A stretch of DNA of 64,000 bases from Candidatus Omnitrophota bacterium. Its GTDB lineage: Bacteria; Omnitrophota; Gorgyraeia; Zapsychrales; Zapsychraceae. Below the pieces are notes generated by a model. That model saw only the letters and a program-made list of their open reading frames with translations, was not told the origin of the DNA and ran no database searches. The position numbers and the translations under genes were made by a program. Location: NCBI GenBank assembly GCA_020429915.1, contig JAGQKV010000008.1, positions 3,338 to 67,337 on the forward strand, read 5' to 3'. Shown here one piece after another: positions 20,001-37,195 of the stretch (position 1 is the stretch's first letter; each line of letters starts with the position of its first letter).

Positions 20001-21043
20001 GCGGTATCCCAGGTGATGTTGGTGCGCGAGTTGCTGAGGTCTTGACCGCCGCCGGTCTCGGTGAGGCGGACGTAATGGGCGTCGTCCGGAAGCTTGGCAA
20101 TGGTTATCCCGGTCTCGGCGGCGACCACTTGCAGTCCCGTCGGTGTATTCACGCCTTCCCTGCGTATTTGGATCACCAGATCCTGACTGGTGGTGGTTGT
20201 CTCGATAATACCGGCATAGGTCGCCATCGAATCTTCGGTGTTATTCGTCCCGCGCTGATAGGCGGTGATCCGCGTGCCCGGGATCTCGGTACCGTCCAGG
20301 GTTAGGCGCGTTTCCAGGTTGCCGCGGTTGGTCGTGTCGTTTTGATTGAAGCTGACGTTGGACGTCACCAGATAGTGGCCTTGCGGCCCAAGGGTGATCG
20401 TCGCACCGCTGCGGCTAAATGTGCCGGCATCAATCTCATCGTCGGTGGCCAGGGTCAGATCGATGAACGTGCTGGAGGTGAAAGTCTGATTCGACGACGG
20501 GCGGGTCCTGATATAGTCCCAGCCGTCATCCAGCTTCAGGACGGAAATGCCAGACTTGTCCGCGCGGCGCCGCACCGTGGCGGAATTGCTGTCGGTGCGT
20601 TGCATCTGAATACGGATATCGTCTCCGGCGGAAACATCGATAATTGCCGCGCCCTGATTGTATCCTTCGTCGTTGTTGCCCGCTCGCCGAATATATCCCT
20701 GGCCGCGGCCATAGGGAAGATTGGAGCCCGTCGTTTGATTGCGGATCCAGCTTTGCATCTCCGAGCGATTGGTCCCTCCGGAGGTTTCGGTCGGGACGGA
20801 GTAGAGGACGAGATAGTGACCGCCCTCTTCGAGATCGATGTCCAGACTGCCCGTTATGGAGAAGCTTCCCGATACAGTCACTTCATCATCCCAGGTCAAG
20901 TTGGTGGCCGTCGTGGCGATGGTGTCCAGGCCGGTGATGTCCTTATAAATGGCATAATCACCGGGCGCACCCCAGGTTCGGCCGCTCATAGCCAGCACGG
21001 CCAGCAGCAGGGACAGTCCAAGTTGTCGAATGCGTTTAAGCAT
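17009..21043 (-). CDS. very large (1344 aa) secreted Thr/Ser/Gly/Asp-rich surface protein with internal domain repeats (adhesin or S-layer-like)
   Basis: Signal peptide MLKRIRQLGLSLLLAVLAMSGRTWG. Two tandem 175-aa repeats (LRYRWRDD...YPSLVMA and LHFIWRDD...YPELTID). Three copies of a GHYLV/GDYLF-containing module near the N-terminus. Confidence 0.6.
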   Translation of the reverse strand: MLKRIRQLGLSLLLAVLAMSGRTWGAPGDYAIYKDITGLDTIATTATNLTWDDEVTVSGSFSITGSLDIDLEEGGHYLVLYSVPTETSGGTNRSEMQSWIRNQTTGSNLPYGRGQGYIRRAGNNDEGYNQGAAIIDVSAGDDIRIQMQRTDSNSATVRRRADKSGISVLKLDDGWDYIRTRPSSNQTFTSSTFIDLTLATDDEIDAGTFSRSGATITLGPQGHYLVTSNVSFNQNDTTNRGNLETRLTLDGTEIPGTRITAYQRGTNNTEDSMATYAGIIETTTTSQDLVIQIRREGVNTPTGLQVVAAETGITIAKLPDDAHYVRLTETGGGQDLSNSRTNITWDTADEEDTAAFDHDGTNTERINIEADGDYLFFGALYASRSGVDARETLFGEWQNSDSSAAGTDGSGLYLYGGFGQYNRGVETSGGTTLTSGASAGILMPGLASTQYIQLTQINEATNSDSTYQADRMALQGVNLDTLFIPGGTPFTRQLRYRWRDDTTALNSSGGFLAAESTELSDAQVASTYRVRLSVANAGDTVESAARQYEIQWAEASTTCGAIPSGNYVGVADSADEFAMSASTNLTDGQTVTGTLLSNTEAYSFTNGEGRDVTDTTASLGPLNASTVTELEFSITPTATAADATRYCFRVRDALAGTPLDGYATYPSLVMAAEDSTQLHFIWRDDASDLNTLSGTLGVEDSNAIASIDRGVTRRIRIAVANLGAAAEDAGRQYELEFAPKVTTCAAVSSWTGVDDTTDEFQMVDSVHISPDGESSSTGFLTLPGSYSRITGEGRDSADTSSSRGPLDTDEMVELEYSITPGETAVTGQSYCFRLYDAAAGSALDSYSVYPELTIDAVNSNRIGEFGTVSLTNNTWETVNFTNTYTNPVVVGSARYDPDTDAQREVRVRNKTSTQFDVKVDNSAGSLTATTTVDYIVMESGTFGMDSGSGTLLVQAGSENTDGTFCNTDTISGTPATVTFNPAFSGTPIVLTTVASNSDTAWTSTHIDDGTTLDNDPTTSTMRMTLNVGWNACSGSPHGAEDIDYIAFEEGVHGTNNAVEFDTQLGVDTVSCCDAGNGYETTFTSAFSSAPEVTVISQSGEDGGNGSYAVTSTGRATTASTHYGSADEDGTGSDRTHTTESVALVAFDASSGTILTDASIFDQTHYRIYENIDAVQPTTALAAENTRAEQVTNGQVIRLRMAVQVGGTDLSASEQAFTLQYVASTNCAAEADGSWTDVDGTGGSGIWRGFDNASPADGATLSANLLSLSDIRASYEEANDSAANPLSATVGQRLEYDWVVQNNGAASGNNYCFRMVLDDGDAIHYYRYPQVRTGGPLRGAIIMVD
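18488..19564 (-). repeat. intragenic tandem duplication encoding two 175-aa domain repeats
   Basis: Protein-level repeat: aa 494-671 versus aa 678-852 of the 1344-aa product. Confidence 0.5.
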
Positions 21044-22507: not shown

Positions 22508-23974
22508 TTGAGACCTATGTCACTTCCTCACGATATTATCAGAATATCCGATACCCTGTGGGAAATCCCCAAGTCCCATGATCCGGAAATGCGCGTTCCC
22601 GCCCGGATCTTCGCCACCGAAAAACTTCTGCAAAAAATGGACGAAGCCGTCTTTCAGCAGGCCGTTAACGTCGCCAAGCTGCCCGGCATTCTCAAATACT
22701 CTTACTGTATGCCGGACGGGCATTGGGGGTACGGTTTTCCGATCGGCGGGGTGGCGGCCATGGACCCGGAGGAGGGTGTGATTTCTCCGGGCGGCATCGG
22801 TTTTGACATCAATTGTGGGATGCGTTTGTGCCTGACCAACCTGACCTTTGATGAGGTCAAACCACACCTGAAGCGGCTGGTGGAGCGCCTGTTCGACCGT
22901 GTCCCGTGCGGGGTCGGCCGAAAGGGATTTGTCGAGATATCGAAAAAGGAATTTCCGCGGGTGGCGCGGGAGGGGTCGCGCTGGTGTTTGAACAAGGGAT
23001 ACGGAACTCAACACGATTTGGAGATGACCGAAGAGGGCGGCTGCATTGAGGACGCCGATCCGTCCCGCGTATCCCAGAAGGCGATCGAGCGCGGCTTTCA
23101 TCAGATCGGTACGCTCGGTTCGGGGAATCACTATCTCGAAATCCAGGTGGCAAAGCCGGAAAACATTTTTGATGAACAAACAGCGCGGGCCTACGGTATC
23201 ACCATCCCGAACCAGGTCGTGATTATGTTCCACTGCGGCAGCCGCGGGTTCGGGCATCAGATTGCCACCGATTATCTGGAAATTTTCCTGAAGGTCATGC
23301 AGAGCAAATACAAACTCAAGGTCAATGACAAGGAGCTAGCCTGCGCGCCGTTCCGTTCGCCGGAAGGGCAGGCCTATTTCGCGGCGATGAAGTGCGCGGT
23401 CAACATGGCCTTTGCCAATCGCCAGGTGATCCTCCACCGGGTGCGCGAGGTTTTTTCGGAGGTCTTTTGTAAGTCGCCGCAGGATTTGGGTCTCAGCCAG
23501 GTTTACGACGTGGCCCACAATATTGCCAAACTGGAAAAGCATATCGTGGACGGAAAGATGCGCACCGTTCTCGTCCACCGCAAAGGCTCCACGCGCGCCT
23601 TTGGGCCGGGTATGGACGGTATTCCGGATGCCTACCGCAAGGTCGGTCAGCCGGTGATCATCGGTGGGAGTATGGAGACGGGATCGTACTTGCTGGCCGG
23701 TGTAAAGGGCAACGAGGATGCCTTCTGCACCACCGCGCACGGCAGCGGCCGCACCATGAGCCGCCGGCAGGCGCGTAAACAGTTTCGGGGAGATGATCTG
23801 CAGCGGGCGATGGAGGAACGCGGCGTTTACGTTCGCTCGGCTTCCTTTGCCGGACTCGCCGAAGAGGCCGGACTGGCGTACAAGAATATCGACGACGTCA
23901 CTGAGGCCACCGAACTCTCCGGGATCAGCAAACGGATCGTGCGGCTGGTACCGGTCGGGAATATCAAGGGATAG
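22508..23974 (+). CDS. rtcB: RNA-splicing ligase RtcB (3'-phosphate/5'-hydroxyl RNA ligase)
   Basis: Hallmark motifs CMPDGHWGYGFPIGGVAA, GGIGFDINCG, GSGNHYLEIQ and HGSGR. 488 aa. Confidence 0.9.
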   Translation: MRPMSLPHDIIRISDTLWEIPKSHDPEMRVPARIFATEKLLQKMDEAVFQQAVNVAKLPGILKYSYCMPDGHWGYGFPIGGVAAMDPEEGVISPGGIGFDINCGMRLCLTNLTFDEVKPHLKRLVERLFDRVPCGVGRKGFVEISKKEFPRVAREGSRWCLNKGYGTQHDLEMTEEGGCIEDADPSRVSQKAIERGFHQIGTLGSGNHYLEIQVAKPENIFDEQTARAYGITIPNQVVIMFHCGSRGFGHQIATDYLEIFLKVMQSKYKLKVNDKELACAPFRSPEGQAYFAAMKCAVNMAFANRQVILHRVREVFSEVFCKSPQDLGLSQVYDVAHNIAKLEKHIVDGKMRTVLVHRKGSTRAFGPGMDGIPDAYRKVGQPVIIGGSMETGSYLLAGVKGNEDAFCTTAHGSGRTMSRRQARKQFRGDDLQRAMEERGVYVRSASFAGLAEEAGLAYKNIDDVTEATELSGISKRIVRLVPVGNIKG

Positions 23975-23979
23975 ACGCG

Positions 23980-24405
23980 ATGCCGTACCGGTTTCTGGAT
24001 GATGTCGCCACCGCAGATATTGCGTTTGAGGCCACAGGCAGGGACCTGAATGAAATCTTCCGGGCCGCCGCCGCCGCGACGCTGGCCGTTATGCTGGAAG
24101 ATATTCCCGGGCTCGAGGACCGGGTCGAGCGGACGGTCGTATTGGATGCCGACGATCCGCAGGAATTGCTCTTCCGGTTTCTCCAGGAGGTGATCTTTTA
24201 CAAAGATGCCGAATGCCTCCTGTTGCGTGTGCGGGAGCTCAACGTGACCGGCGACGGCCGGCAACTGCGGGCGGTCATGAGCGGTGAGGCTGTGGATATC
24301 GAACGCCATTGTTTGAACGTAGACATAAAAGCGGTCACGTATCACCTTTTTACTTTTAAAGAAACCGCCGAGGGCTATGTCACGACCGTTGTCCTCGACA
24401 TATAA
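23980..24405 (+). CDS. archease (RtcB activator)
   Basis: Collinear with archease (DDVATADIAFEA ... DIKAVTYH ... VVLDI). Immediately downstream of rtcB. Confidence 0.8.
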   Translation: MPYRFLDDVATADIAFEATGRDLNEIFRAAAAATLAVMLEDIPGLEDRVERTVVLDADDPQELLFRFLQEVIFYKDAECLLLRVRELNVTGDGRQLRAVMSGEAVDIERHCLNVDIKAVTYHLFTFKETAEGYVTTVVLDI

Positions 24406-27613: not shown

Positions 27614-28195
27614 ATGGAAGAACTCGAAGAACTTTCTGAGAAGACCCCGGTCAAGCATGTCCGGGACGGATACAAAGGCTGGATTTGCGGAAGAACACGC
27701 ATGAAGGAATGTTTTACCGGCAACACCGACTGCGATTTTCAATACCGCGTGCAAATTCCCGGAGAGGACCGCCGACGTATCGCGCCGCGGGAGGATTTGG
27801 AGATCATACGCGAAGCCGGAGATTTTCCGGAGGTTATTTACGAACATGACCAGCACGATGAAAACGAAAGCTGGCTGCACGCGCTTGGTTACCAGATCAC
27901 GGGCATGGATTTTAACGAACGGATCACCATTTTGATGAATATCGCGATCCCGATGCGGGGCGAGCGATCCGTCGTGTACAAGCTGACCGGTTTTATGAAG
28001 GCGCGCGCCACCAGTCAGGATCGCACCCAACAGTATTATCACGCGTTGTCGGAGTGGAACCGGGACATCAATTTCATTATGAAGAAATTCGACGACAAAT
28101 GGATCAAGACACACGTAAAGTCGATCCGCAAGAAACTGGAACAGAACGGGTACCATTGGATCGAAGATGAGGAAGTCAAAGACCAATCCGCCTAA
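27614..28195 (+). CDS. hypothetical protein
   Basis: 193-aa ORF. No recognisable motifs. Confidence 0.45.
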   Translation: MEELEELSEKTPVKHVRDGYKGWICGRTRMKECFTGNTDCDFQYRVQIPGEDRRRIAPREDLEIIREAGDFPEVIYEHDQHDENESWLHALGYQITGMDFNERITILMNIAIPMRGERSVVYKLTGFMKARATSQDRTQQYYHALSEWNRDINFIMKKFDDKWIKTHVKSIRKKLEQNGYHWIEDEEVKDQSA

Positions 28196-28213
28196 TCCGC
28201 AAAGGGGAGATGC

Positions 28214-31200
28214 ATGCAAAAGATTCTGGTGATGATCGGCGTCCTGATGACAGTAACCGTAACGCAGGCCGCGGCTGAAAACTTGCGCGGGGCGCGCGCC
28301 TTGTTCGACATGGTGACGAAGTACGCAAATGTCGAGGAGGAGCCAGTCGAGCGACCGGTGGATGAATGGCGCGCGGCAGTGGCCGCGTACAAGGCGAATC
28401 CCCCCGCCGATGCCAGGCAGGCGGCGGCGGACTGGCAGGCCCTTTATTTTCGGTTGTGGGAAGTCCGTGAACCGCAGAACGAGGCGCTTTATGCACCGAA
28501 TCCGGCATTAAAAGCATTGATCGCGGCCATCCCCGGACCGGAGGCGTGGGGCCATTTGCTGGACCTCCCGGTCCCCGATGGACAACAGGACTCGGCGGCC
28601 GGTCAGGTGTGGTGGTACATCACCGGCGCATTGGCCGAGGATGAGGTCCGCATGAACGCGGCGTTGGACGCCCTGGAGACCGGCAGCCGTTCGGGACCGG
28701 AATGGCAACAGGAGTACGCGCGCGAGCTGATCCGTTCGATGCGCCGGGAGCTGATGATGGGCCACGGCTCCGCGCAGCCTCAGATCAAACTTTTTATGGA
28801 AGCGTTAGTCGCTGAACAAACCGAACGTTCCTTCCATGAGGTCGAGGTCCCGGATTTGGTCACGATTTTAGGTAAGACCGAGGCCAGGGAGCTGCTGATC
28901 AAGGCCTTAAAGACCGGGGGGGTGTTGCTTAAAGTTCCGGTCGGTGACGAAACCCGCGCGATGGCGATTAAAACGGCACTGGAAATGATCGACGACATCC
29001 GGGAACCGCAGTGGCTGTTGACTATGGAGGTGGGCCCGCAACCGCAGAAACTGTACGAGGCGCTGGAAAAGGAATTCGGCCCGCTGCCGGCCCAGTACCG
29101 GTCCGGGGCCGAGGTGGCGGACGGGTCCGATTCCGGGGAACCGCTGAGCATTGGCGAGATGCTGAGCGAGTTTATGGGAATCGACGACGAAGGGAGCGCC
29201 GATCCGCCTTACGGATCGCTATACTATTTTCAGGCCCAGGCACGTCCCTACTACATGGTCTCTCTCATGTTGGCCGGGCGGCAAGCGGAGGCGATGGACA
29301 TCGCTTTTGAGGTGGGACTGCACCGGGACGGCTTGTTGACCGGAGAGATAATGAACTTTATGCAGGAAACCGGTCACACCCGGGAGCTGGTCGGTTTCCT
29401 GAAAGAAGTACTTACCGTCCGTCCGCAGCTCGGTTGGTGGGACGTTTACATCGCCCTGGCGGCACAGATGGGTATGCGCGAGGAGCCTGAACAAATGATC
29501 AGCGCACGCCTGGCCGACTCAGGGATTGACCCCGATCGCCGGTTGGTTTACCAGGTGCATCTGCTGCGGCTGTACCTCGCCTTTGATGATATCCCCGCGG
29601 CTGAGAGTATTGTCGACGGAATCAGTCTGGACCTCACCCGGCGTCCGGTTCTCGATTTGTCCGACTATCAGCAAACAGCCGTGAAGTTGGCCAGGACGCT
29701 CACCCGCGCGGGAACGGCACTGGATAAACAGGAGTGGGTGGAACGGGGCCTGGAAATTCTGCGGAAGTTAGCCGGGCGCGGGGGGTTGAACCAATATTTT
29801 GACAGCAGCGCCGAACAGACACTGGTTCGCGAGCTCATCCAACTCGACCGGCTTGCCGAGGCCGAGGAAGTGCTGTTCGCGGGGCTGGAACGCTTTCTCA
29901 AGCGTCTGAATAACCCGTTGGCGATCGACGGTATGGCCGGATATTGGCAGTACGCCGAGTACCTTCCGCTGCTGGTGGTGGTTTATCACAAGTCAGGTCG
30001 CTACGCGGACATCGTGCGGCTGACCGAGCGTATTGCGTTTTGGCAGTACGGCGGTCTGTTCGCGACACTGGAAAAAGGTTTTGTCGATATCGATTTCGGA
30101 TATCATATCGCGCACGCGCTCTACAAAACCGGCCAGACGGAAAAAGCGGCGGAAATCCTCAAACACCTGATAATGCGCGACGGCGGTTATGACCCGGCTT
30201 ACGAGGGGTTGGTCAAGATTGTCGGTCCCGGAATCATTCCGTGGCTGGACGAAGTCTATGCGACCGATCATTTCGAAGAGCGTCCGCTTATTTGGAAGGC
30301 CCATCTATTGGCGCAGGAAAAACAGTGGGAGGCGGCCCGGTCCGTGATCGAGCAGGCCATAGCTATCGATCCTTCCGACGGAGAACAGGGACAGGGACGC
30401 CGGATGCGCGCCTACGCCGTGTTGGCCGTAATTCATCAGGCGTTGGGTGACGCCGAGCAGGCGGTTTTCTATGAAGACGTTGTCAAGGCCATCCGCCAGG
30501 CGGAGCAGGCAGATGAGTTGTATGCCGCCGGTTTGGTCACCCGGGCCGTGCGTGAGTACGAGGCCGCGCTGGACCGGTTCGCGGACGCTTACTGTATTCA
30601 ATCGCGCGCCGCAGTCTATCAGGAATCCCTGGGCAATACCGCAGCTGCCGAAAAACACCTGCGCCGGGCGTATGAACTGATGCCGTCAAGTTTCGGGCAA
30701 ATGGAAAGCCATTGTTTCGGCTGCGAAAAGGCCTTTGCCACGCTCAACCGGCAGCAAATTGCCGAGGAGGTCTTTCAGTCCTTATTGAAGCAGATGCCCG
30801 ACAATCCCCGGGTACAATACCTGATGGGATATCTCCGTCAGGAGCAGGGCAGGGCCGAGGCCAAAGATTATTTTTGGCAGGCCGTTCGCCTCGACCCCGA
30901 TTACATCAATGCCTGGAAGAATCTGCAGCGCCTGAGCGATCACGCCTATGTCCCGGCGGCCGAACAGCAGGAAATTGTCCTGAATCTGCTGCGGCTGGAT
31001 CCGTATGCCCGGCACAGTTCGCCCGAGTTGGGCCGGGTCCATAGCCTGCGGGCTTTGTGGAGTGTCTCCGCCGGGGCGCCCGCCTTGCCGGTCTCGGCGC
31101 AGGGCGAAGTCTATCCGTTTCCTGCCACTCAGGAGCGCCTGGACGGCATGGCCAACGAACAACGGATGATGTTTTACGGGACCGGGGATTCGGACGCGTC

Positions 31201-31288
31201 CACGGACGTCAGCGTGGATCCGGCACGCCGGCTCAGCGAACACAATGTGTTCGTTCCCCTGTATACACTGGTGAAATACCTGCAATGA
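28214..31288 (+). CDS. large secreted TPR-repeat protein (1024 aa)
   Basis: Signal peptide MQKILVMIGVLMTVTVTQAAA. Multiple TPR-like helical repeats in the C-terminal half (AIRQAEQADELYAAGLVTRAVREYEAALD...). Confidence 0.55.
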   Translation: MQKILVMIGVLMTVTVTQAAAENLRGARALFDMVTKYANVEEEPVERPVDEWRAAVAAYKANPPADARQAAADWQALYFRLWEVREPQNEALYAPNPALKALIAAIPGPEAWGHLLDLPVPDGQQDSAAGQVWWYITGALAEDEVRMNAALDALETGSRSGPEWQQEYARELIRSMRRELMMGHGSAQPQIKLFMEALVAEQTERSFHEVEVPDLVTILGKTEARELLIKALKTGGVLLKVPVGDETRAMAIKTALEMIDDIREPQWLLTMEVGPQPQKLYEALEKEFGPLPAQYRSGAEVADGSDSGEPLSIGEMLSEFMGIDDEGSADPPYGSLYYFQAQARPYYMVSLMLAGRQAEAMDIAFEVGLHRDGLLTGEIMNFMQETGHTRELVGFLKEVLTVRPQLGWWDVYIALAAQMGMREEPEQMISARLADSGIDPDRRLVYQVHLLRLYLAFDDIPAAESIVDGISLDLTRRPVLDLSDYQQTAVKLARTLTRAGTALDKQEWVERGLEILRKLAGRGGLNQYFDSSAEQTLVRELIQLDRLAEAEEVLFAGLERFLKRLNNPLAIDGMAGYWQYAEYLPLLVVVYHKSGRYADIVRLTERIAFWQYGGLFATLEKGFVDIDFGYHIAHALYKTGQTEKAAEILKHLIMRDGGYDPAYEGLVKIVGPGIIPWLDEVYATDHFEERPLIWKAHLLAQEKQWEAARSVIEQAIAIDPSDGEQGQGRRMRAYAVLAVIHQALGDAEQAVFYEDVVKAIRQAEQADELYAAGLVTRAVREYEAALDRFADAYCIQSRAAVYQESLGNTAAAEKHLRRAYELMPSSFGQMESHCFGCEKAFATLNRQQIAEEVFQSLLKQMPDNPRVQYLMGYLRQEQGRAEAKDYFWQAVRLDPDYINAWKNLQRLSDHAYVPAAEQQEIVLNLLRLDPYARHSSPELGRVHSLRALWSVSAGAPALPVSAQGEVYPFPATQERLDGMANEQRMMFYGTGDSDASTDVSVDPARRLSEHNVFVPLYTLVKYLQ

Positions 31289-31331
31289 GCCGGGACCGAT
31301 GGCGATCCGCGGCCGGTAAGGATACCGTCAT

Positions 31332-32714
31332 TTGAAACGAACCGTTTACCGACGCAGGCAATTCTTTTTCTTGGGACTGCTCTGTGCGTTCCTGATAACA
31401 CGTCTGCTGCTGCATCCGTGGGACCAGGAATTTCTCGAGGAATGTCTGGATATCCTGGGCATCGGACTCATCGCGCTGGGATTTATTATGCGCATCGCGG
31501 CCAGCGGGTATCTCTTGCAGCGGGCGCAGGGCGGAGAGAACCTGGTCACCGAAGGGCCGTACCGCTTCGTGCGTCACCCCAAGTTCCTGGGCACGTTATT
31601 CGTCGTGGCCGGGGTCGTCAGTCTGTTCCTGCATATTTCCTGGTGCCTGTTTTTTCTGTTGATATGGATGTCCGTCTTCATTCCCGATATCACAGCGGAA
31701 GAACAGCGTCTTGCCAAACGCTTCGATCAAAAATACGCCCGCTACACGCGGCGCGTTCCCCGGTTTGTACCGGTCCTGAGGTCGTGGCTGTGGCTGCCCG
31801 ATTACTTTCAAATCAGACTGTCCTGGTTTAAGCTCGAACGATTGTCACTGGTGTCGGCCGTAGCGGTCACTTTGGTGGTCGAGATCCTCATTGACGCCAA
31901 ACTGTTCGGTCATCAGGAATTACTGGGAGAATTTATTGAGCTGCTGGTTGTCACGGTGTCTTATGCGCTGGCCGGCGCGTGGTTTTTTCTCCCCGAAATC
32001 CGCGAGGCCAAGAGCCTGCGTCCGTTGATCGAAAAAGAATTTGATGCCAACGGCGAGAAGATCTTTGTCTCGCTCTGTTTTGTGACCTTGTTATTCTTCA
32101 CCGGGTTGGTGCTGCACATCAAGAGCTATCCGGTGTGGGCGCCGGATCTGTACATAACCCGGGGTTTTCAACACGAGACCTATTTCGCGTTCTGGTTGCA
32201 GTTGATGAAAATTGTGAGTTTCTTGGGAGACGCTCCGGTCCGGGTGATGTCGTTCGTGTTGGCGGCGCTGTTGTTTTACATCACTCATAACAGGCGGGAG
32301 GTGCTCTTTCTTTTTTTTGTCGCGGTGGCCAATGTCATGGCGGGCGCCATCAAATACGCGGTTGGACGTCCGCGGCCGACGGCGGACATGGTCGCGGTCT
32401 ACCAGAGTACGCATAATTCCAGCTTTCCCAGCGGACATACCGTCTTCTTCACAATTTTTTACGGGTTCATTATCCTGTCGATGTTCTATGCCCGCAATAT
32501 CCCTTTTCTGTTGCGTTGTGTGATCGCGTATGTTTCGATGCTGCTGATCCTCACCATCGGCCTGGCGCGGATTTATATCGGTGTGCATTTCGCTACAGAC
32601 GTGATCGGGGGGTACATGATCGGTTTTGCCTTCCTGTTGGTGATCATCTATTTGTACATCGGTGACAATATCCGTTACCAGCGGATCAAGCGGGGAGGGC
32701 CCGATTTGCGGTGA
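31332..32714 (+). CDS. fusion membrane protein: ICMT/PEMT-like methyltransferase N-domain plus PAP2 phosphatase C-domain
   Basis: ICMT-family motif (GPYRFVRHPKFLGTLF) in the N-terminal half. PAP2 motifs KYAVGRPRP, PSGHT and ARIYIGVHFATD in the C-terminal half. About 10 transmembrane helices. Confidence 0.6.
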   Translation: MKRTVYRRRQFFFLGLLCAFLITRLLLHPWDQEFLEECLDILGIGLIALGFIMRIAASGYLLQRAQGGENLVTEGPYRFVRHPKFLGTLFVVAGVVSLFLHISWCLFFLLIWMSVFIPDITAEEQRLAKRFDQKYARYTRRVPRFVPVLRSWLWLPDYFQIRLSWFKLERLSLVSAVAVTLVVEILIDAKLFGHQELLGEFIELLVVTVSYALAGAWFFLPEIREAKSLRPLIEKEFDANGEKIFVSLCFVTLLFFTGLVLHIKSYPVWAPDLYITRGFQHETYFAFWLQLMKIVSFLGDAPVRVMSFVLAALLFYITHNRREVLFLFFVAVANVMAGAIKYAVGRPRPTADMVAVYQSTHNSSFPSGHTVFFTIFYGFIILSMFYARNIPFLLRCVIAYVSMLLILTIGLARIYIGVHFATDVIGGYMIGFAFLLVIIYLYIGDNIRYQRIKRGGPDLR

Positions 32715-32890
32715 CAGCCGCCCCGTCATTCCGCGGACCGCTGTGTTTGATATATATGACTATTATGATATACTATTACTACTTAATCAGAACCAGTTGG
32801 TTTCCCGCCTAGTACATTCCCCAATCGACGCAGGACTTTAGTATTCTCAATATCATTTAGTTTACATAAGAATCTAAACTGCAAGGTTTT

Positions 32891-35800
32891 ATGCTCGTGT
32901 CCTCGATTTGCCAACAGCGAGTAAGTCCATGGCGCCGGGCCGTAAGCGGCCTCACCGCGATCCTTTTTGTGTTCACCGGGAGCCTGCCCGCGGGGGCTGT
33001 TCAGGGACTGCCGCGTCCGGGCCAAATGGTCCAGCCTTCCGCGACCTACCAATCACCCGGGCTGCGCGGGGTCCGCATCCATCCGGAAAATCCCCTGGAG
33101 TTTGACTTTATTATTAATAGCGGCGAAGCCGATCTGAATACCGACGCCCTCAAGGACGAGGCGGGGAAGCTGATCAAATACTTCTTGGCCGCGTTGACGA
33201 TCCCGGAAGATCACCTGTGGGTCAACCTGTCTCCTTACGAGGAAGGGCGGGTCATATCCTCCGGACTCGGTGCGACTGCGATGGGCCGGGACCTGCTGGA
33301 GCAGGATTATTTGCTGAAGCAGTTGTCGGCTTCCCTGATGTATCCCGAAGAGGAATTGGGACGAACATTCTGGCAACGGGTCCATGAGCGTACGTTGCGT
33401 ACGTACGGAACCACGGCCGTTCCCGGTCAGACATTCCATAAGGTTTGGATCGTCCCTGACAAGGCCGTTGTTTATGAGCGGGACGGGGGGGCTTACGTGG
33501 TGGAACGGCATCTGAAGGTGATGCTGGAAGCGGATTATCAGGCATCGGAGTATGCCAATCCGGATGCCGGCGCGGTCTCCTCCGGGGAATCCCAAAACGG
33601 GGATATCGCGGCGAAGATGGTCCGTGAAATCATTGTCCCCGAGATCGAACGCGAGGTGAATCACGGCCGCCACTTCGCGACGCTGCGCCAGATATATGAC
33701 GCCATGATCCTGGCCACCTGGTACAAACGTAAACTGCGCGACGGCCTGTTGAACCGGATCTACGTGGACCGCGAAAAGGTCCGCGGCGTGGATATCAATC
33801 ACCCGAAACAGGTGACGGAGGAAATTTATCAGCAGTACCTGGAAGCCTTTCGCAAAGGGGTGTACGACTTTGTGCGTGAGGACGTGGACCCGGTGAGCCG
33901 GGAGACCGTGCCGCGCCGGTATTTCTCAGGCGGTTTGATTTACCGGGGACGTACCGTGGAGGTGACCACTGACAAGGCGTTGTTGACCGACGAACAGCAA
34001 CGTCAATTACGGCGGGACGCGGGACGGGATCGCCTGGTAACCGCTATGCTTTTGGAGGTAGAGGCCAAGGCCGGCGATCAGGCGATGAACGCCAAGGAGC
34101 CGGCGCCTGACACGGAGGCGGGGCGGTTGGCGGCAGTGCAGCGCGCGCTTTACCCGGATGGGAGAGTTCAACCGGTGCGGCTCGCCGACAAACACGGAGA
34201 CGTCCATAATCTGGTCGTGTTGGACCCGGAAGGCCGAAACTTCGGACATGCCTCCACGTGGAAGGTCAACGGCGGTTCGAATATAGCGGCGCACAGTTTT
34301 GATTTGGCCGTCCCCACGGGAAACCGAAAGGTCTCTTTCAATATCGTCGCGCCTGAGGGCCGGTCTGCCGACGGTCGCGTCTTTACAGCCGCGTTAAACG
34401 ACATCGTCGGTTTGCCCGATATATCTGGCGAACAACTGTTCGCCCGCCCCGATTTATTGACCCGTGATGATCATTCTGTCTCCGGTAATGAATTTGTGAT
34501 CCGGCTGGACAATCTTGGTGGACTGAACTCACTCGTCATCTCCGACTTAAGATTCGGCAGCGGCAAATCAATTAAGGATGAGAAACGCAGCGGCCCCGCC
34601 GATCCGACGGCGGCCGCCTACACCAAGCAATTTGTGGATGAGGGACGCGACATCCGCGCAAGTCGTTGGTCCAGGAACGGGGAGCCGCGCTTTCGCGCCA
34701 CCGCCCAGCCGCGCACCGCCGACGGGCTGCACGACACGCACAACTATCTGGTGGAGATCGATTCGCATCAGACGGGATTCCGGCCGGGTTCGGTCACCAT
34801 CGCATTGAATGAAGGCAATGACGTTGTCATTCATAAAGACGCGGACGTGGATTATGTAATGCTACGGGTGCGGCTCTACTCGGATCATACGGATTTGGGC
34901 CATATGCGGTTGGAGGAATTGTACGACGTGTCCGTTTTGGAACACTACGTGGATTTGCAGCAGCGGGAAGAGGATTGGTTCGGCACCGCCACAGCGGAGC
35001 AACGCCGGCGTTACCAACGGCTGGTGAAGAGTCTGCGCAGGCACATGCTGGAGCGCAACGCCGGCGAGCGTCAACGCCGCCGGATCGCACTGCTACGCAG
35101 CCGTATCTCAACCTTGGCTGATCAAATCGGTCAGCGGGACGCCGACAAGCAGGCAGCCCTGAATCCGCTCCGTCAGTACGAAGACATCCCGTTCTTTGAG
35201 GCGGAACGGTTGCGGATCTTGTTGTATAACGGACAATTCTTGATAACGCGCAACGCCGCCATCCTCGCCGGGTCGCCGTATTATTTGACGCCATTCGGCG
35301 GAGACGTGATCATCATCCTGCGTGAACTGCTGGGTTATCTCCGGCCGGACGTCGTCCGTGCGCAGTTTTACCAGTTGCTGAAGCTGGTGCGCAATGGGCA
35401 GCTCGCGCATGAGGTCGACATCCGATTTCACAGCGACGATGAGCGTCATCTGGACGTCCGCCTGGAATCACCGCGCGTGGACACGGAACTGTTGCTGATG
35501 ATGTTTGCCGGGACCATGCTGAGCCACCCTGAGTACGATATCGACTGGCAGCAGACCGTCACGGGCGACATCACGGCCGCCGAAGCGATCACCGGCGTCG
35601 CCCGCTATGTGCTCGAACGCGCGCAGAGACTCGCTTCCGCTCAGGACCGCACCGGACTCCTCGGTCCGAAGGATACCGGGACCGCGTTCGAAGACCCGCG
35701 GCTGGATTGGGAGGATGCTTCGAATTCCAAGGCCTACGGACGCTACAGTCATTTGATCCAGTACCTCGTTCCGTTCGCGTTGCAGGCCATCAACAAGCTT

Positions 35801-37195
35801 AGTGAGAGTCACAAGACGGCGTCGGATATCCATGTCGACCCTGTGCTCATCGAAGATTGGGTGGGGACCCGCGATATTTTCAACACCCGCGTCGGCCGGG
35901 ATTACCGGATCGAAGCCTTGATGGAATGGTACCGTTGGCGCATCAAACGGACCGCGGACGGTCGGCGTTTCGTCTTGGCCATGCTGGCGGACGCGCTGGA
36001 GTACTACGGATCCGATTTCACTTTCAAGCAGGGGAGTGACGACGAACTGCTCGCCTCCATCCGGGAGTTCCTGGAGGCGCATGTCCCGCTGGGTGACTTC
36101 GTCTACCAGTCCAAAGTCCTCGACGCGGGCGGTGATCAGATCCGGGTGGCTGATACCAATCCGCTGATATTTGCCACGTCCACGGCGGACGGCGTACGCA
36201 CCGACGAGATAAAACACGGTCTGGATTTGGTTTTTACGCACGTCGCCCTGGGCGGTGTCGGTATGACGGAGGGATCGGTGCAGACCGGTATTCCGACCGT
36301 GAAGGGTGCCGACCGCGAAGTCCGGCATCCGGTCAGCATCGCCGGGATCATTCCGTCGACGGATCTATACGAAATCTATCACCGGAATTATCACGGCATG
36401 ATCATTTGGCTGTCGATGAACTACAAACGCCTCAACGGTTTGATCCGGCAGATCAATCATCGCCTGTCAAATGGGGAAGGATTCTCGCAGGACGTCCAAA
36501 TGATGTACGCGGCCGTGGAGCTGTTGCACAATGACATGAACCAGCTGGCCGAGCTTGTTACCGAGGAGACCCTGGAGCCGTATATGAACGGAAGCCAGCG
36601 GTTTCGCTGGCGGCCGTACGGCAGCAATGTGGAAGTTGACGATGCCGACGGTATTCAGTCCGGTTCGATGCAGGGATTCAATATGATGGCCATGCCTGCC
36701 ATCGTGAATTTACGCCGGCTGCGGGAACGGATCGAGGCCCTACCGCAATCCGGATTTATGTCGGCCGTCGGCATGCGCGCCGGCAACCTGCGGACAAGGA
36801 TCCAGGAGAAGCCGTACGCGGTACGCGCGCTGATCCGCGAATGGACGCAGCAGCAGCGGACGCCGCTGGCGGATGCCACTCCCCAGACCACCACCGATGA
36901 CCAGGCGTTGCTCAACACCGCAGCACGGACAACGAACGACAAGGATGTCGGGGGGATCGACTTGAGTTCGGGCTGGCTGGATTTGCAGATTAAACGCGAT
37001 CCGAACGGGGTCCCCTTGCCGGTCATCGAGCAACCGCTTGATACCATCCGCGCGGATTTTGAAGGCTTTTACCCGGTGATCATCAACGTAACGCCGGTCA
37101 ATATCCCGCTGATCCTGGGGATGTCGCCGGATGGACCGGACCCGGCGGAGGAACATTTTGTCCCACGGCCGGGGTCTCCATTGGCACGGCGGTAG
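32891..37195 (+). CDS. giant (1434 aa) hypothetical secreted protein
   Basis: N-terminal signal-like segment (LTAILFVFTGSLPAGAVQG). No recognisable catalytic motifs. Uninterrupted frame. Confidence 0.55.
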   Translation: MLVSSICQQRVSPWRRAVSGLTAILFVFTGSLPAGAVQGLPRPGQMVQPSATYQSPGLRGVRIHPENPLEFDFIINSGEADLNTDALKDEAGKLIKYFLAALTIPEDHLWVNLSPYEEGRVISSGLGATAMGRDLLEQDYLLKQLSASLMYPEEELGRTFWQRVHERTLRTYGTTAVPGQTFHKVWIVPDKAVVYERDGGAYVVERHLKVMLEADYQASEYANPDAGAVSSGESQNGDIAAKMVREIIVPEIEREVNHGRHFATLRQIYDAMILATWYKRKLRDGLLNRIYVDREKVRGVDINHPKQVTEEIYQQYLEAFRKGVYDFVREDVDPVSRETVPRRYFSGGLIYRGRTVEVTTDKALLTDEQQRQLRRDAGRDRLVTAMLLEVEAKAGDQAMNAKEPAPDTEAGRLAAVQRALYPDGRVQPVRLADKHGDVHNLVVLDPEGRNFGHASTWKVNGGSNIAAHSFDLAVPTGNRKVSFNIVAPEGRSADGRVFTAALNDIVGLPDISGEQLFARPDLLTRDDHSVSGNEFVIRLDNLGGLNSLVISDLRFGSGKSIKDEKRSGPADPTAAAYTKQFVDEGRDIRASRWSRNGEPRFRATAQPRTADGLHDTHNYLVEIDSHQTGFRPGSVTIALNEGNDVVIHKDADVDYVMLRVRLYSDHTDLGHMRLEELYDVSVLEHYVDLQQREEDWFGTATAEQRRRYQRLVKSLRRHMLERNAGERQRRRIALLRSRISTLADQIGQRDADKQAALNPLRQYEDIPFFEAERLRILLYNGQFLITRNAAILAGSPYYLTPFGGDVIIILRELLGYLRPDVVRAQFYQLLKLVRNGQLAHEVDIRFHSDDERHLDVRLESPRVDTELLLMMFAGTMLSHPEYDIDWQQTVTGDITAAEAITGVARYVLERAQRLASAQDRTGLLGPKDTGTAFEDPRLDWEDASNSKAYGRYSHLIQYLVPFALQAINKLSESHKTASDIHVDPVLIEDWVGTRDIFNTRVGRDYRIEALMEWYRWRIKRTADGRRFVLAMLADALEYYGSDFTFKQGSDDELLASIREFLEAHVPLGDFVYQSKVLDAGGDQIRVADTNPLIFATSTADGVRTDEIKHGLDLVFTHVALGGVGMTEGSVQTGIPTVKGADREVRHPVSIAGIIPSTDLYEIYHRNYHGMIIWLSMNYKRLNGLIRQINHRLSNGEGFSQDVQMMYAAVELLHNDMNQLAELVTEETLEPYMNGSQRFRWRPYGSNVEVDDADGIQSGSMQGFNMMAMPAIVNLRRLRERIEALPQSGFMSAVGMRAGNLRTRIQEKPYAVRALIREWTQQQRTPLADATPQTTTDDQALLNTAARTTNDKDVGGIDLSSGWLDLQIKRDPNGVPLPVIEQPLDTIRADFEGFYPVIINVTPVNIPLILGMSPDGPDPAEEHFVPRPGSPLARR

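What the first reader, a model, noticed from the sequence alone, without database searches (positions are those of the whole stretch)
28214..37195. Tightly linked block of three very large proteins: 1024-aa TPR protein, ICMT-PAP2 membrane enzyme, 1434-aa unknown secreted protein
All three genes are co-oriented with gaps of at most 180 bp, suggesting an operon. Their combined size (about 9 kb) is large, the third has no recognisable domains, and the set pairs a lipid-modifying membrane enzyme with two giant extracytoplasmic proteins. This could be an uncharacterised envelope or secretion-associated system.
Basis: inference. Interest (0 to 1): 0.5.

Follow-up and report, generated by a model that had tools for sequence, protein, structure and literature searches.

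The report
Not an operon; Omnitrophota bracket-family glycosidase
The three big neighbouring genes are real but are not a conserved system; the "unknown" 1434-aa protein carries a hidden glycogen-debranching-type sugar-cleaving domain, held between an N-terminal and a C-terminal module that thousands of Omnitrophota proteins share and that I found described nowhere.

Summary
In detail: three co-oriented ORFs (1024, 460 and 1434 aa) with gaps of 43 and 176 nt, and the TPR and ICMT+PAP2 calls are correct. The window is from a Candidatus Omnitrophica MAG.

The "three-gene system" does not hold. Among five close relatives, only the closest keeps all three genes. Others lack the TPR gene, and one lacks the 1434-aa gene altogether. 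More distant homologues of the TPR and 1434-aa proteins sit in unrelated contexts. The 1434-aa gene also has its own conserved promoter-like site and leader.

The 1434-aa protein has four parts:
- a signal-peptide-like N-terminus;
- a ~310-aa N-module, ~50% identical to more than 3000 Omnitrophota proteins, with no Pfam, NCBIfam, PDB or viral-structure (BFVD) match;
- a ~65-aa C-module shared with the same proteins.

In 58 complete family members, the N- and C-modules always occur once each, at the two termini. Between them lie very different cargo domains: PGI, PGK, GAPDH, glycogen enzymes, receiver domains, HTH and radical SAM.

ICMT-PAP2 belongs to a conserved housekeeping backbone next to lptFG and is probably a lipid-phosphate remodelling enzyme. 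What the bracket modules do is unknown; a sorting or assembly handle is my inference.

The parts
28214..31288 (+). 1024-aa protein with a signal-peptide-like N-terminus. TPR repeats lie only in residues ~630-910 (nt 30101-30943) and residues 23-620 have no match. It is a variable insert in the clade and not part of the unit described here.
   Evidence: It is present at this position only in the window and L003 (79% identity); it is absent in L001, L004 and L005/L002. Only 8 homologues were found, and the more distant ones sit in unrelated contexts.
31332..32714 (+). 460-aa polytopic membrane fusion. An ICMT/PEMT-type SAM O-methyltransferase occupies residues ~43-148 (nt 31458-31775) and a PAP2 lipid-phosphate phosphatase occupies residues 324-442 (nt 32301-32657). 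It is part of the conserved backbone PFK - 193-aa gene - ICMT/PAP2 - lptGF.
   Evidence: Pfam PAP2 1.7e-20 and ICMT 3.2e-8. PAP2 motifs KYAVGRPRP, PSGH and ARIYIGVHFATD, and ICMT motifs RHPKFLG and EEQRLAKRF..Y..Y, can be read in the translation. PDB sequence matches: B. subtilis PgpB/YodM 3.3e-12, Ma-ICMT 5e-5, LpxE 5e-4. It is present in all five relatives.
32747..32774 (+). Promoter-like site of the 1434-aa gene: TTGATA, 16 nt, TATACT with an extended TG.
   Evidence: 10 of 12 matches. The block TATGATATACT is invariant in five relatives whose encoded proteins are only ~63-76% identical.
32816..32826 (+). Leader motif ATTCCCCAATC, followed by conserved CTTTAGT and ACATAAG, about 74 nt upstream of the ATG.
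   Evidence: It is invariant in relatives. The exact 11-mer occurs 10 times in the 88 fetched loci, always on the + strand and upstream of a bracket-family gene, including in distant genomes. It is 18.6-fold enriched upstream of these genes, p=3e-10.
32891..32998 (+). Signal-peptide-like N-terminus (residues 1-36): basic n-region, hydrophobic helix, then A-x-A-like PAGAV.
   Evidence: Translation. AF2 predicts a helix at 13-31. The same pattern (R..S......F......PP....AQ) is seen across family members. Cleavage and export are inferred and were not predicted with a dedicated tool.
33005..33934 (+). N-module (residues ~39-348). It is Omnitrophota-wide and has many invariant residues, including WVNLSP (110-115), DY.LKQ (139-144) and the F-GG of YFSGG (F345, G347, G348).
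34175..34882 (+). Beta-sandwich domain (residues ~429-664) preceding the barrel.
   Evidence: AF2 model m1343664c141b, strands E39-E274 in model numbering, pLDDT mostly 75-93. It is aligned together with the barrel to 7vma_B.
34910..36850 (+). (alpha/alpha)6-barrel six-hairpin glycosidase-like domain (residues ~674-1320), of GDE/GH15-clan type. Motifs: LAGSPYYLTPFGGD (792-805), AHEVDIR (839-845), LDWEDAS (938-944), NYHGMIIW (1166-1173).
36926..37135 (+). C-module (residues ~1346-1415): GGIDLS..LDLQIKRD..GVPLP...QP......GFYPVIINV.PV..PLILG.
   Evidence: It is shared with the same proteins that share the N-module. In 58 complete ORFs it occurs exactly once and ends 0-46 aa before the stop codon. 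On its own it is predicted as short strands at low confidence.

Best explanation
The block is three separate things placed side by side on a housekeeping backbone, not one system. (1) The 1434-aa gene is its own transcription unit. It encodes a member of a very large, Omnitrophota-restricted protein family. The family is defined by a signal-peptide-like N-terminus, a ~310-aa N-module and a ~65-aa C-module that bracket a variable cargo. In this protein the cargo is a beta-sandwich plus (alpha/alpha)6 barrel of the glycogen-debranching/GH15 type. Most likely mechanism (inferred): the protein is exported by Sec, the paired terminal modules act as a common handle that localises or assembles family members in the cell envelope or surface coat, and the barrel hydrolyses an alpha-glucan-type glycan there. 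(2) ICMT-PAP2 is a conserved membrane enzyme of the backbone beside lptFG. It most likely remodels a lipid phosphate by dephosphorylation plus O-methylation, with lipid A the leading candidate (inferred). (3) The TPR protein is a clade-specific insert, probably co-transcribed with its neighbours, whose partner is unknown. Shown: the domain architecture, the fold, the family distribution, the breaks in synteny and the conserved promoter/leader. Inferred: export, the role of the modules, and both substrates.
For: Architecture and family. There is exactly one N-module and one C-module per complete ORF (n=58), and cargo length ranges from 293 to 1893 aa. Distribution: at least 583 loci, all labelled Omnitrophota or 'uncultured Planctomycetales' apart from two records titled only 'bacterium', with several paralogues per MAG. 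Fold of the cargo. Internal cargo enzymes in paralogues. Synteny breaks. Own promoter and leader. ICMT/PAP2 motifs and nearest structures. It lies convergent to and abutting lptG in L004.
Against: All three genes are kept together in the closest relative, L003, and ICMT/PAP2 plus the big gene are adjacent in the four sequenced relatives that have the big gene. A clade-local functional link therefore cannot be excluded. Export is not demonstrated, and many paralogues carry cargo that needs cytoplasmic cofactors or DNA (PGK, GAPDH, radical SAM, HTH), which fits poorly with an extracytoplasmic location. In the barrel, the family motif FGRD is FGGD and WRD is WED in this clade, so catalytic competence is uncertain. 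Pfam GDE_C does not hit, and the family HMM does not hit the canonical GDE cargo of P0096. The C-module is modelled at low confidence, and no N-C contact could be tested.
Confidence: 0.6

Rival explanations
1. One reading: the three genes form one operon that encodes a dedicated envelope or secretion-associated system. A lipid-modifying enzyme would serve two giant extracytoplasmic proteins.
For: The genes are co-oriented, with gaps of 43 and 176 nt. All three are retained in L003. ICMT/PAP2 plus the big gene are adjacent in L001, L002/L005 and L003. All three have export or membrane features.
Against: The TPR gene is absent in L001, L004 and L005/L002, and the big gene is absent in L004 while ICMT/PAP2 stays. 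Distant homologues are not linked. No TPR or ICMT/PAP2 homologue lies near 80 other family loci. A conserved promoter-like site and leader precede the big gene. The relatives that do share adjacency are close kin, so shared order may only reflect recent ancestry.
Confidence: 0.1
2. The bracket-family proteins, this one included, are not exported. [quoted passage not shown] The N- and C-modules would assemble sugar-metabolism enzymes into a cytoplasmic complex, and this member would be a genuine intracellular glycogen-debranching-like enzyme.
For: Cargo is dominated by cytoplasmic-type enzymes. By my count, about 30 of the 64 Pfam-annotated hits carry glycolysis, glycogen or nucleotide-sugar enzymes, 11 carry receiver domains and 10 carry HEAT repeats. 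HTH and radical SAM/B12 cargo also occur. The cargo here resembles a glycogen debranching enzyme.
Against: Basic residues precede the hydrophobic segment, and an A-x-A/AQ motif follows it throughout the family. This is the layout of a Sec signal or an N-in anchor and would place the body of the protein outside. Some cargo is of an extracellular type: GH26 and Por_Secre_tail. A 2026 preprint reports signal peptides or TM helices in 94% of long Omnitrophota proteins (10.64898/2026.06.07.730766).
Confidence: 0.2
3. The N- and C-modules are a delivery or processing device rather than an anchor. They might release the cargo by self-cleavage, or carry it out of the cell into a host or prey cell, where cytoplasmic-type enzymes would find their cofactors.
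For: Many charged or polar residues of the N-module are invariant (N112, S114, E117, D134, D139, K143, K184, D215, E253, E255, R266, D333). This pattern is more typical of a catalytic or binding site than of a passive anchor. The cargo is paradoxical for an exported protein. Omnitrophota include epibiotic predators (abstracts).
Confidence: 0.1

Closest known systems
Archaeal-type glycogen debranching enzyme (amylo-alpha-1,6-glucosidase, PDB 7VMA) and the GDE_C/GH15 six-hairpin glycosidases
   Different: There is no Pfam GDE_C hit and only 15% identity. The motif Arg of FGRD is Gly here and WRD is WED. The domain sits inside a 1434-aa protein between unrelated terminal modules and after a signal-like peptide. 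The family is very rare. Activity and substrate are untested.
C-terminal and N-terminal sorting or anchoring tags on diverse cargo, for example the T9SS C-terminal domain (Por_Secre_tail), with a Sec signal at the N-terminus
   Same: A short conserved C-terminal module and an N-terminal signal are shared by many proteins with unrelated passenger domains, which are dispersed around the genome.
   Different: No Por_Secre_tail/TIGR04183-type hit falls on the C-module. In addition there is a 310-aa conserved N-module, which T9SS cargo lack. One family member, P0106, carries a Por_Secre_tail internally (residues 1068-1139 of 1502), that is, as cargo. The resemblance is one of logic only; no homology is shown.
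Omnitrophota long and giant multi-enzyme proteins ('Archaeovorins', West-Roberts et al. 2023 preprint; 2026 complete-genome preprint)
   Same: Same phylum, and the same unusual mix of sugar-metabolism enzymes, receiver domains, radical SAM and HEAT repeats in proteins with signal peptides or TM helices.
   Different: Those papers deal with proteins of 10,000 aa or more and, in the passages my term searches returned, do not describe a shared N-module/C-module bracket. The family here is 0.8-2.5 kaa with a strict one-N, one-C layout.
Lipid A phosphate-modifying enzymes: LmtA (Leptospira lipid A 1-phosphate methyltransferase, ICMT-like) and the PAP2 phosphatases LpxE/LpxF/PgpB
   Same: The 460-aa protein combines an ICMT-type methyltransferase with a PAP2 phosphatase that has all three catalytic motifs. 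It gives weak NCBIfam hits to LmtA (8e-10) and PDB hits to PgpB and LpxE. It lies next to lptFG.
   Different: Scores are far below the equivalog cut-offs (38.8 against 325 bits for LmtA). A fusion of the two activities is found at full length in only five close relatives, plus one distant 492-aa Ste14/PAP2 fusion. The substrate is unknown.

Membership tests
Conserved three-gene operon/system (TPR + ICMT/PAP2 + 1434-aa protein) | The three genes co-occur, adjacent, in relatives beyond the nearest kin | tested here: not met
   Only L003 keeps all three. L001, L004 and L005/L002 lack the TPR gene, and L004 lacks the big gene. Distant homologues are unlinked.
Conserved three-gene operon/system (TPR + ICMT/PAP2 + 1434-aa protein) | A single transcription unit | tested here: inconclusive
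   The 43-nt gap is compatible with co-transcription of TPR and ICMT/PAP2. The 176-nt AT-rich gap holds a conserved promoter-like site and leader. No transcript data are available.
Six-hairpin glycosidases of the GDE_C/GH15 clan | (alpha/alpha)6 barrel fold with a preceding beta-sandwich | tested here: met
Six-hairpin glycosidases of the GDE_C/GH15 clan | Sequence-profile membership (Pfam GDE_C PF06202 or a related model above threshold) | tested here: not met
   No Pfam hit at E<=0.1. There is only a weak profile-to-PDB hit to 7vma, E=5e-4. The family HMM does not detect the canonical GDE_C cargo of P0096.
Six-hairpin glycosidases of the GDE_C/GH15 clan | Catalytic acid/base carboxylates in place | tested here: inconclusive
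   The Asp of W-x-D is retained (LDWEDAS 938-944) and a conserved Glu lies near 1225-1229. FGRD is FGGD in this clade. The residues were not mapped onto a solved active site.
Six-hairpin glycosidases of the GDE_C/GH15 clan | Glycoside hydrolase activity | not testable with these tools
   This needs an enzyme assay.
Omnitrophota N/C-bracket family (defined here) | One N-module directly after a signal-like N-terminus and one C-module at the extreme C-terminus of the same polypeptide | tested here: met
   In the window protein the N-module is at ~39-348 and the C-module at ~1346-1415, each matched by HMMs built from family members. Identity to 116 paralogues is 42-60% over the best aligned stretch, which is the N-terminal stretch in the 56 checked.
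Omnitrophota N/C-bracket family (defined here) | Invariant N-module residues (the WVNLSP block; D139, Y140, K143 and Q144 of DY.LKQ; E253, E255 and N257 of E.E.N; F345, G347 and G348 of YFSGG) | tested here: met
   All are present in the window protein.
T9SS cargo (C-terminal sorting domain) | A Por_Secre_tail/TIGR04183-type domain at the C-terminus | tested here: not met
   No Pfam or NCBIfam hit anywhere in the 1434-aa protein.
PAP2 lipid-phosphate phosphatases | The three motifs KX6RP, PSGH and SRX5HX3D, and the Pfam model above threshold | tested here: met
   KYAVGRPRP, PSGH and ARIYIGVHFATD. PF01569 scores 73.5 bits against a cut-off of 27.2.
ICMT/PEMT membrane methyltransferases | Pfam model above threshold and the RHP.Y.G / EE...L C-terminal cofactor motifs | tested here: met
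   PF04140 scores 34.3 bits against 24, and PF04191 scores 29.5 against 25. RHPKFLG and EEQRLAKRF are present.
LmtA (lipid A 1-phosphate methyltransferase) or LpxE/F equivalogs | NCBIfam equivalog/exception score above the cut-off | tested here: not met
   TIGR04571 scores 38.8 bits against a cut-off of 325, and the other equivalogs are far below their cut-offs. The function is only an analogy.

The most novel reading that the evidence does not exclude
The N-module and C-module are the two ends of a previously undescribed, phylum-specific protein handling system in Omnitrophota. It would take a large and diverse set of otherwise cytoplasmic enzymes and regulators (glycolysis, glycogen and nucleotide-sugar enzymes, receiver domains, HTH, radical SAM) out of the cytoplasm. 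The destination would be a surface coat, an enlarged periplasm, or a host/prey cell. A subset of these genes would be co-regulated through the shared leader element ATTCCCCAATC. The 1434-aa protein would then be one cargo-bearing unit of that system, not part of a local operon.
Probability: 0.3. Interest if true: 0.85.

Novelty: new variant of a known kind. Interest (0 to 1): 0.55.

Why it matters
As written, the three-gene "system" is ordinary gene neighbourhood and should not be pursued as such.

The third gene is the useful part. It exposes a family of thousands of Omnitrophota proteins whose two termini are conserved at ~50% identity across the phylum while the middle changes completely. 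Neither terminal module has a Pfam or NCBIfam model. The N-module also has no structural match in the PDB or BFVD (the C-module was modelled too poorly to be searched), and I found no description of either in the papers I could search. Omnitrophota are uncultured nanobacteria, some of them predatory. How they place sugar-metabolism enzymes and regulators behind signal peptides is an open puzzle that has already been noted for their giant proteins. A defined, compact bracket gives a concrete handle for localisation, proteomic and structural experiments.

The work also assigns a fold (debranching-enzyme-like six-hairpin barrel) to a protein that had no annotation. It further flags a rare methyltransferase-phosphatase fusion as a candidate lipid A modifier.

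Tried and rejected
- **Pfam and NCBIfam** on the 1434-aa protein found nothing at E<=0.1. A direct sequence search of the PDB found nothing at E<=1.
- **Second family member in the window.** tblastn of the N-, C- and middle parts against the window found none. HMM scans agreed.
- **Conserved partner gene.** All-against-all clustering of neighbour ORFs around 80 family loci found no linked family. The largest cluster, in 11 loci, is a protein with a receiver-like N-terminus that I did not annotate; the 7-locus clusters were not annotated either, and two of them, on the opposite strand, look like shadow ORFs.
- **ICMT/PAP2 or TPR as family-linked partners.** Rejected, because there are no homologues within 6 kb of any of the 80 loci.
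- **hhalign of A2 against P0096**, meant to relate the cargo to canonical GDE, only re-found the N-module. A sub-alignment HMM did not hit P0096.
- **Rfam and tRNA scans** of the window were empty.
- **Literature.** Four full-text searches and term searches within five papers (Seymour 2023, West-Roberts 2023, the 2026 complete-genome preprint, Williams 2021, Kizina 2026) found no description of the bracket modules. Kizina et al. 2022 (PMC9004380) is not held, so it could not be checked.
- **Considered and rejected on sequence grounds:** a lipoprotein signal (no Cys); an exosortase- or sortase-type C-terminal signal (no TM helix plus basic tail); an intein-like bracket (no invariant Cys or His).

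Full report
**1. Observation**

The window holds three co-oriented ORFs at 28214..31288 (1024 aa), 31332..32714 (460 aa, TTG start) and 32891..37195 (1434 aa), separated by 43 and 176 nt.

- Pfam places TPR repeats only in residues ~630-910 of the first protein.
- Pfam finds an ICMT/PEMT domain (43-133) plus PAP2 (324-442) in the second.
- Pfam and NCBIfam find nothing in the third.
- All three have database homologues, including 100%-identical entries. P0001 is named by its source as a 'hypothetical protein' of a Candidatus Omnitrophica MAG.

'Secreted' rests on reading the N-termini, not on a predictor.

**2. Context**

- Upstream on the same strand lie rtcB, archease, two unknown genes, pfk and a 193-aa unknown gene, which ends 18 nt before the TPR gene.
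- Downstream, convergent, lie lptG/lptF and a comF-like gene.
- No tRNA or Rfam family is present in the window.

**3. Is it a three-gene system?**

Gene order in the clade, ranked by ICMT/PAP2 identity to the window:

| Locus | ICMT/PAP2 identity | Gene order |
|---|---|---|
| L003 | 88% | pfk - glyoxalase - 194 aa - TPR (1024 aa) - ICMT/PAP2 - big gene |
| L001 | 78% | pfk - glyoxalase - 192 aa - ICMT/PAP2 - 1436 aa |
| L004 | 75% | glyoxalase - 191 aa - ICMT/PAP2, then 6 nt later convergent lptG, lptF, comF; no TPR and no big gene |
| L005/L002 | 73% | pfk - 192 aa - DUF3592 - ICMT/PAP2 - 1428 aa - lptFG |

- The backbone (pfk ... 193-aa gene - ICMT/PAP2 - lptGF) is stable, while the TPR gene and the big gene come and go independently.
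- The 39%-identical homologue of the big protein (P0004) lies next to trehalose genes, with no partner nearby.
- TPR homologues at 33-47% identity lie among exbBD/secDF or unrelated genes.
- None of 80 further loci with family genes has a TPR or ICMT/PAP2 homologue within 6 kb.
- The 176-nt gap before the big gene is AT-rich. It carries a 10-of-12 promoter-like site with extended TG at 32747-32774. Blocks of it are invariant among relatives whose proteins are only ~63% identical: TATGATATACT, ATTCCCCAATC, CTTTAGT and ACATAAG.

I conclude that the big gene is its own unit. The TPR gene is an insert that is probably co-transcribed with its neighbours.

**4. Anatomy of the 1434-aa protein**

A search of 5.8 billion proteins returned only three full-length homologues (64, 63 and 39% identity). 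The partial hits listed match ~13-32% of the query at ~42-60% identity.

BLAST shows that the shared parts are residues ~2-350 and ~1350-1415. The parts are as follows.

- **(a) Signal-like N-terminus.** A basic n-region, a hydrophobic helix and an A-x-A/AQ motif, seen family-wide.
- **(c) Middle, residues ~390-1340.** It is very rare: 14 representatives at E<=1e-3 among 1.84 billion proteins, none of those scanned with a Pfam domain.
  - The AF2 model (pLDDT 77, pTM 0.79) shows a beta-sandwich (429-664) and a helical barrel (674-1320).
  - A profile of the family independently hits the 7vma sequence at E=5e-4. The alignment pairs LAGSPYYLT.FG.D with LAGIPYFACPFGRD, and G.vaHE with GKIPHE.
  - In this clade FGRD is FGGD and WRD is WED, so activity is uncertain.
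- **(d) C-module, residues ~1346-1415.** Its sequence is GGIDLS..LDLQIKRD..GVPLP..QP......GFYPVIINV.PV..PLILG. On its own it is modelled as short strands at low confidence.

**5. The family**

- HMMs of the two modules, run on every ORF of the fetched loci, found 103 ORFs with an N-module.
- The 58 ORFs that carry both modules each have exactly one N-module (median start at residue 47) and one C-module (ending a median of 9 aa, range 0-46, before the stop).
- Between the two modules lie 293-1893 aa of cargo.
- Apparent 'N-only' or 'C-only' ORFs I checked were cut by a locus end or split by a frameshift.
- A scan of one genome per GTDB species found at least 583 loci. Apart from two records titled only 'bacterium', all are in MAGs labelled Omnitrophota/Omnitrophica (including Candidatus Aceula) or 'uncultured Planctomycetales' / 'Planctomycetales bacterium'. 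Several paralogues occur per MAG, for example at least 6 in OFTM38.
- Cargo domains, from the precomputed Pfam list (my count): 64 of the 116 partial hits are annotated. About 30 of these carry glycolysis, glycogen or nucleotide-sugar enzymes, 11 carry receiver domains and 10 carry HEAT repeats.
- I verified that PGI, GAPDH, GDE_N+GDE_C, PGK, starch synthase, radical SAM/B12, HTH, GH26, peptidase M48, ABC1 and even a Por_Secre_tail domain lie internally, between the two modules.
- No conserved neighbouring gene accompanies the family.
- Only one member lies in this window.

**6. Mechanism**

- **Shown.** The strict bracket architecture, the phylum restriction, the paralogy, the cargo diversity, and the fold of this member's cargo.
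- **Inferred.** Sec export from the N-terminal layout; a joint role for the two modules, because they never occur apart; and a localisation or assembly function for them.
- **Unresolved paradox.** Much of the cargo (PGK, GAPDH, HTH, radical SAM) normally needs the cytoplasm.
- **Rival readings.** These are a cytoplasmic scaffold and a delivery or self-processing device; both are kept as rivals.
- **This member.** The most likely activity is hydrolysis of an alpha-glucan-type glycan, and this is untested.

**7. ICMT-PAP2**

- All three PAP2 motifs and the ICMT cofactor motifs are intact.
- The nearest solved structures are B. subtilis PgpB/YodM, Ma-ICMT and LpxE.
- NCBIfam gives only sub-threshold hits to LmtA, undecaprenyl-diphosphatases and ICMT.
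- The full-length fusion is confined to five close relatives; one distant 492-aa Ste14/PAP2 fusion also turned up.
- It always sits on the backbone beside lptFG.
- By analogy with LmtA plus LpxE/F, it could dephosphorylate and methylate lipid A. This is inference only.

**8. Comparison with what is known, and novelty**

- The cargo is a divergent member of a known fold class.
- The ICMT-PAP2 and TPR proteins are new members of known kinds.
- The terminal bracket resembles known sorting-tag logic (a Sec signal plus a C-terminal sorting domain, as in T9SS), but it fails the T9SS membership test and adds a large N-module of unknown fold.
- Four full-text searches and term searches within five papers found no description of the bracket. 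Kizina et al. 2022 could not be read.

I rate the whole as a new variant of a known kind, with a more radical reading left open.

**9. Verdict**

The finding as stated, a three-gene envelope system, is not supported and is ordinary. Its third gene is a good entry point to an undescribed, phylum-wide modular protein family. Interest 0.55.

Noticed in passing
window 32761-32826; also L011 5664, L022 5666, L050 1532 and 5888, L062 5824, L071 5875: A shared 5' leader layout lies upstream of a subset (~11 of ~100) of bracket-family genes, including in distant genomes. It reads: TTGAC-like -35, TATACT -10, then 15-45 nt (often a hairpin), then the exact 11-mer ATTCCCCAATC, then CTTTAG. It is 18.6-fold enriched upstream of these genes (p=3e-10). 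There is no Rfam match. It could be a regulator site or a leader RNA element.
   Followed up: partly
window 27614-28195 (+): A 193-aa protein with no Pfam domain and a Cys-rich N-terminal part (CGRTRMKECFTGNTDCDF) is the best-conserved gene of the neighbourhood. It is 83-90% identical in all five relatives, more than ICMT/PAP2 (73-88%) or the big protein (63-76%). Its function is unknown.
   Followed up: partly
window 28196-31331 versus L001, L004, L005: The slot between the 193-aa gene and ICMT/PAP2 is an insertion/deletion hot spot. It holds the TPR gene in the window and L003, a DUF3592 gene in L005/L002, and nothing in L001 and L004. A glyoxalase gene between pfk and the 193-aa gene is present in L001, L003 and L004 but absent in the window and L005.
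   Followed up: partly
window 17009-21043 (-): Another very large ORF (1344 aa) has only a sub-threshold H-type lectin match (E=1.4e-4). It is not a bracket-family member by tblastn or HMM.
   Followed up: no
window 22508-24405 (+): An rtcB RNA ligase gene is immediately followed by archease, its known activator. The two are followed by conserved unknown genes of 208 and 447 aa, which are also present in L005.
   Followed up: no
window 35294-35305 and 35708-35716 (protein residues 802-805 and 940-942): In the window clade, the six-hairpin family motifs FGRD and WRD read FGGD and WED, while more distant family members keep the Arg. The domain may have an altered specificity or may be inactive.
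   Followed up: partly
P0106 (1502 aa), P0067 (1340 aa) and P0066 (1144 aa), all: Bracket-family paralogues carry unexpected internal cargo: a T9SS-type Por_Secre_tail domain at residues 1068-1139, HTH DNA-binding domains together with a GH26 fragment, and a B12-binding radical SAM enzyme. This mixes extracellular-type and strictly cytoplasmic-type domains under the same terminal modules.
   Followed up: partly
P0122 (1466 aa): A divergent relative has the same six-hairpin cargo. Its N-terminal region is only ~25% identical to the query over residues 83-623, and it has a degenerate GGIDLS C-terminus. The bracket family therefore extends to much lower identity than the ~50% core.
   Followed up: no
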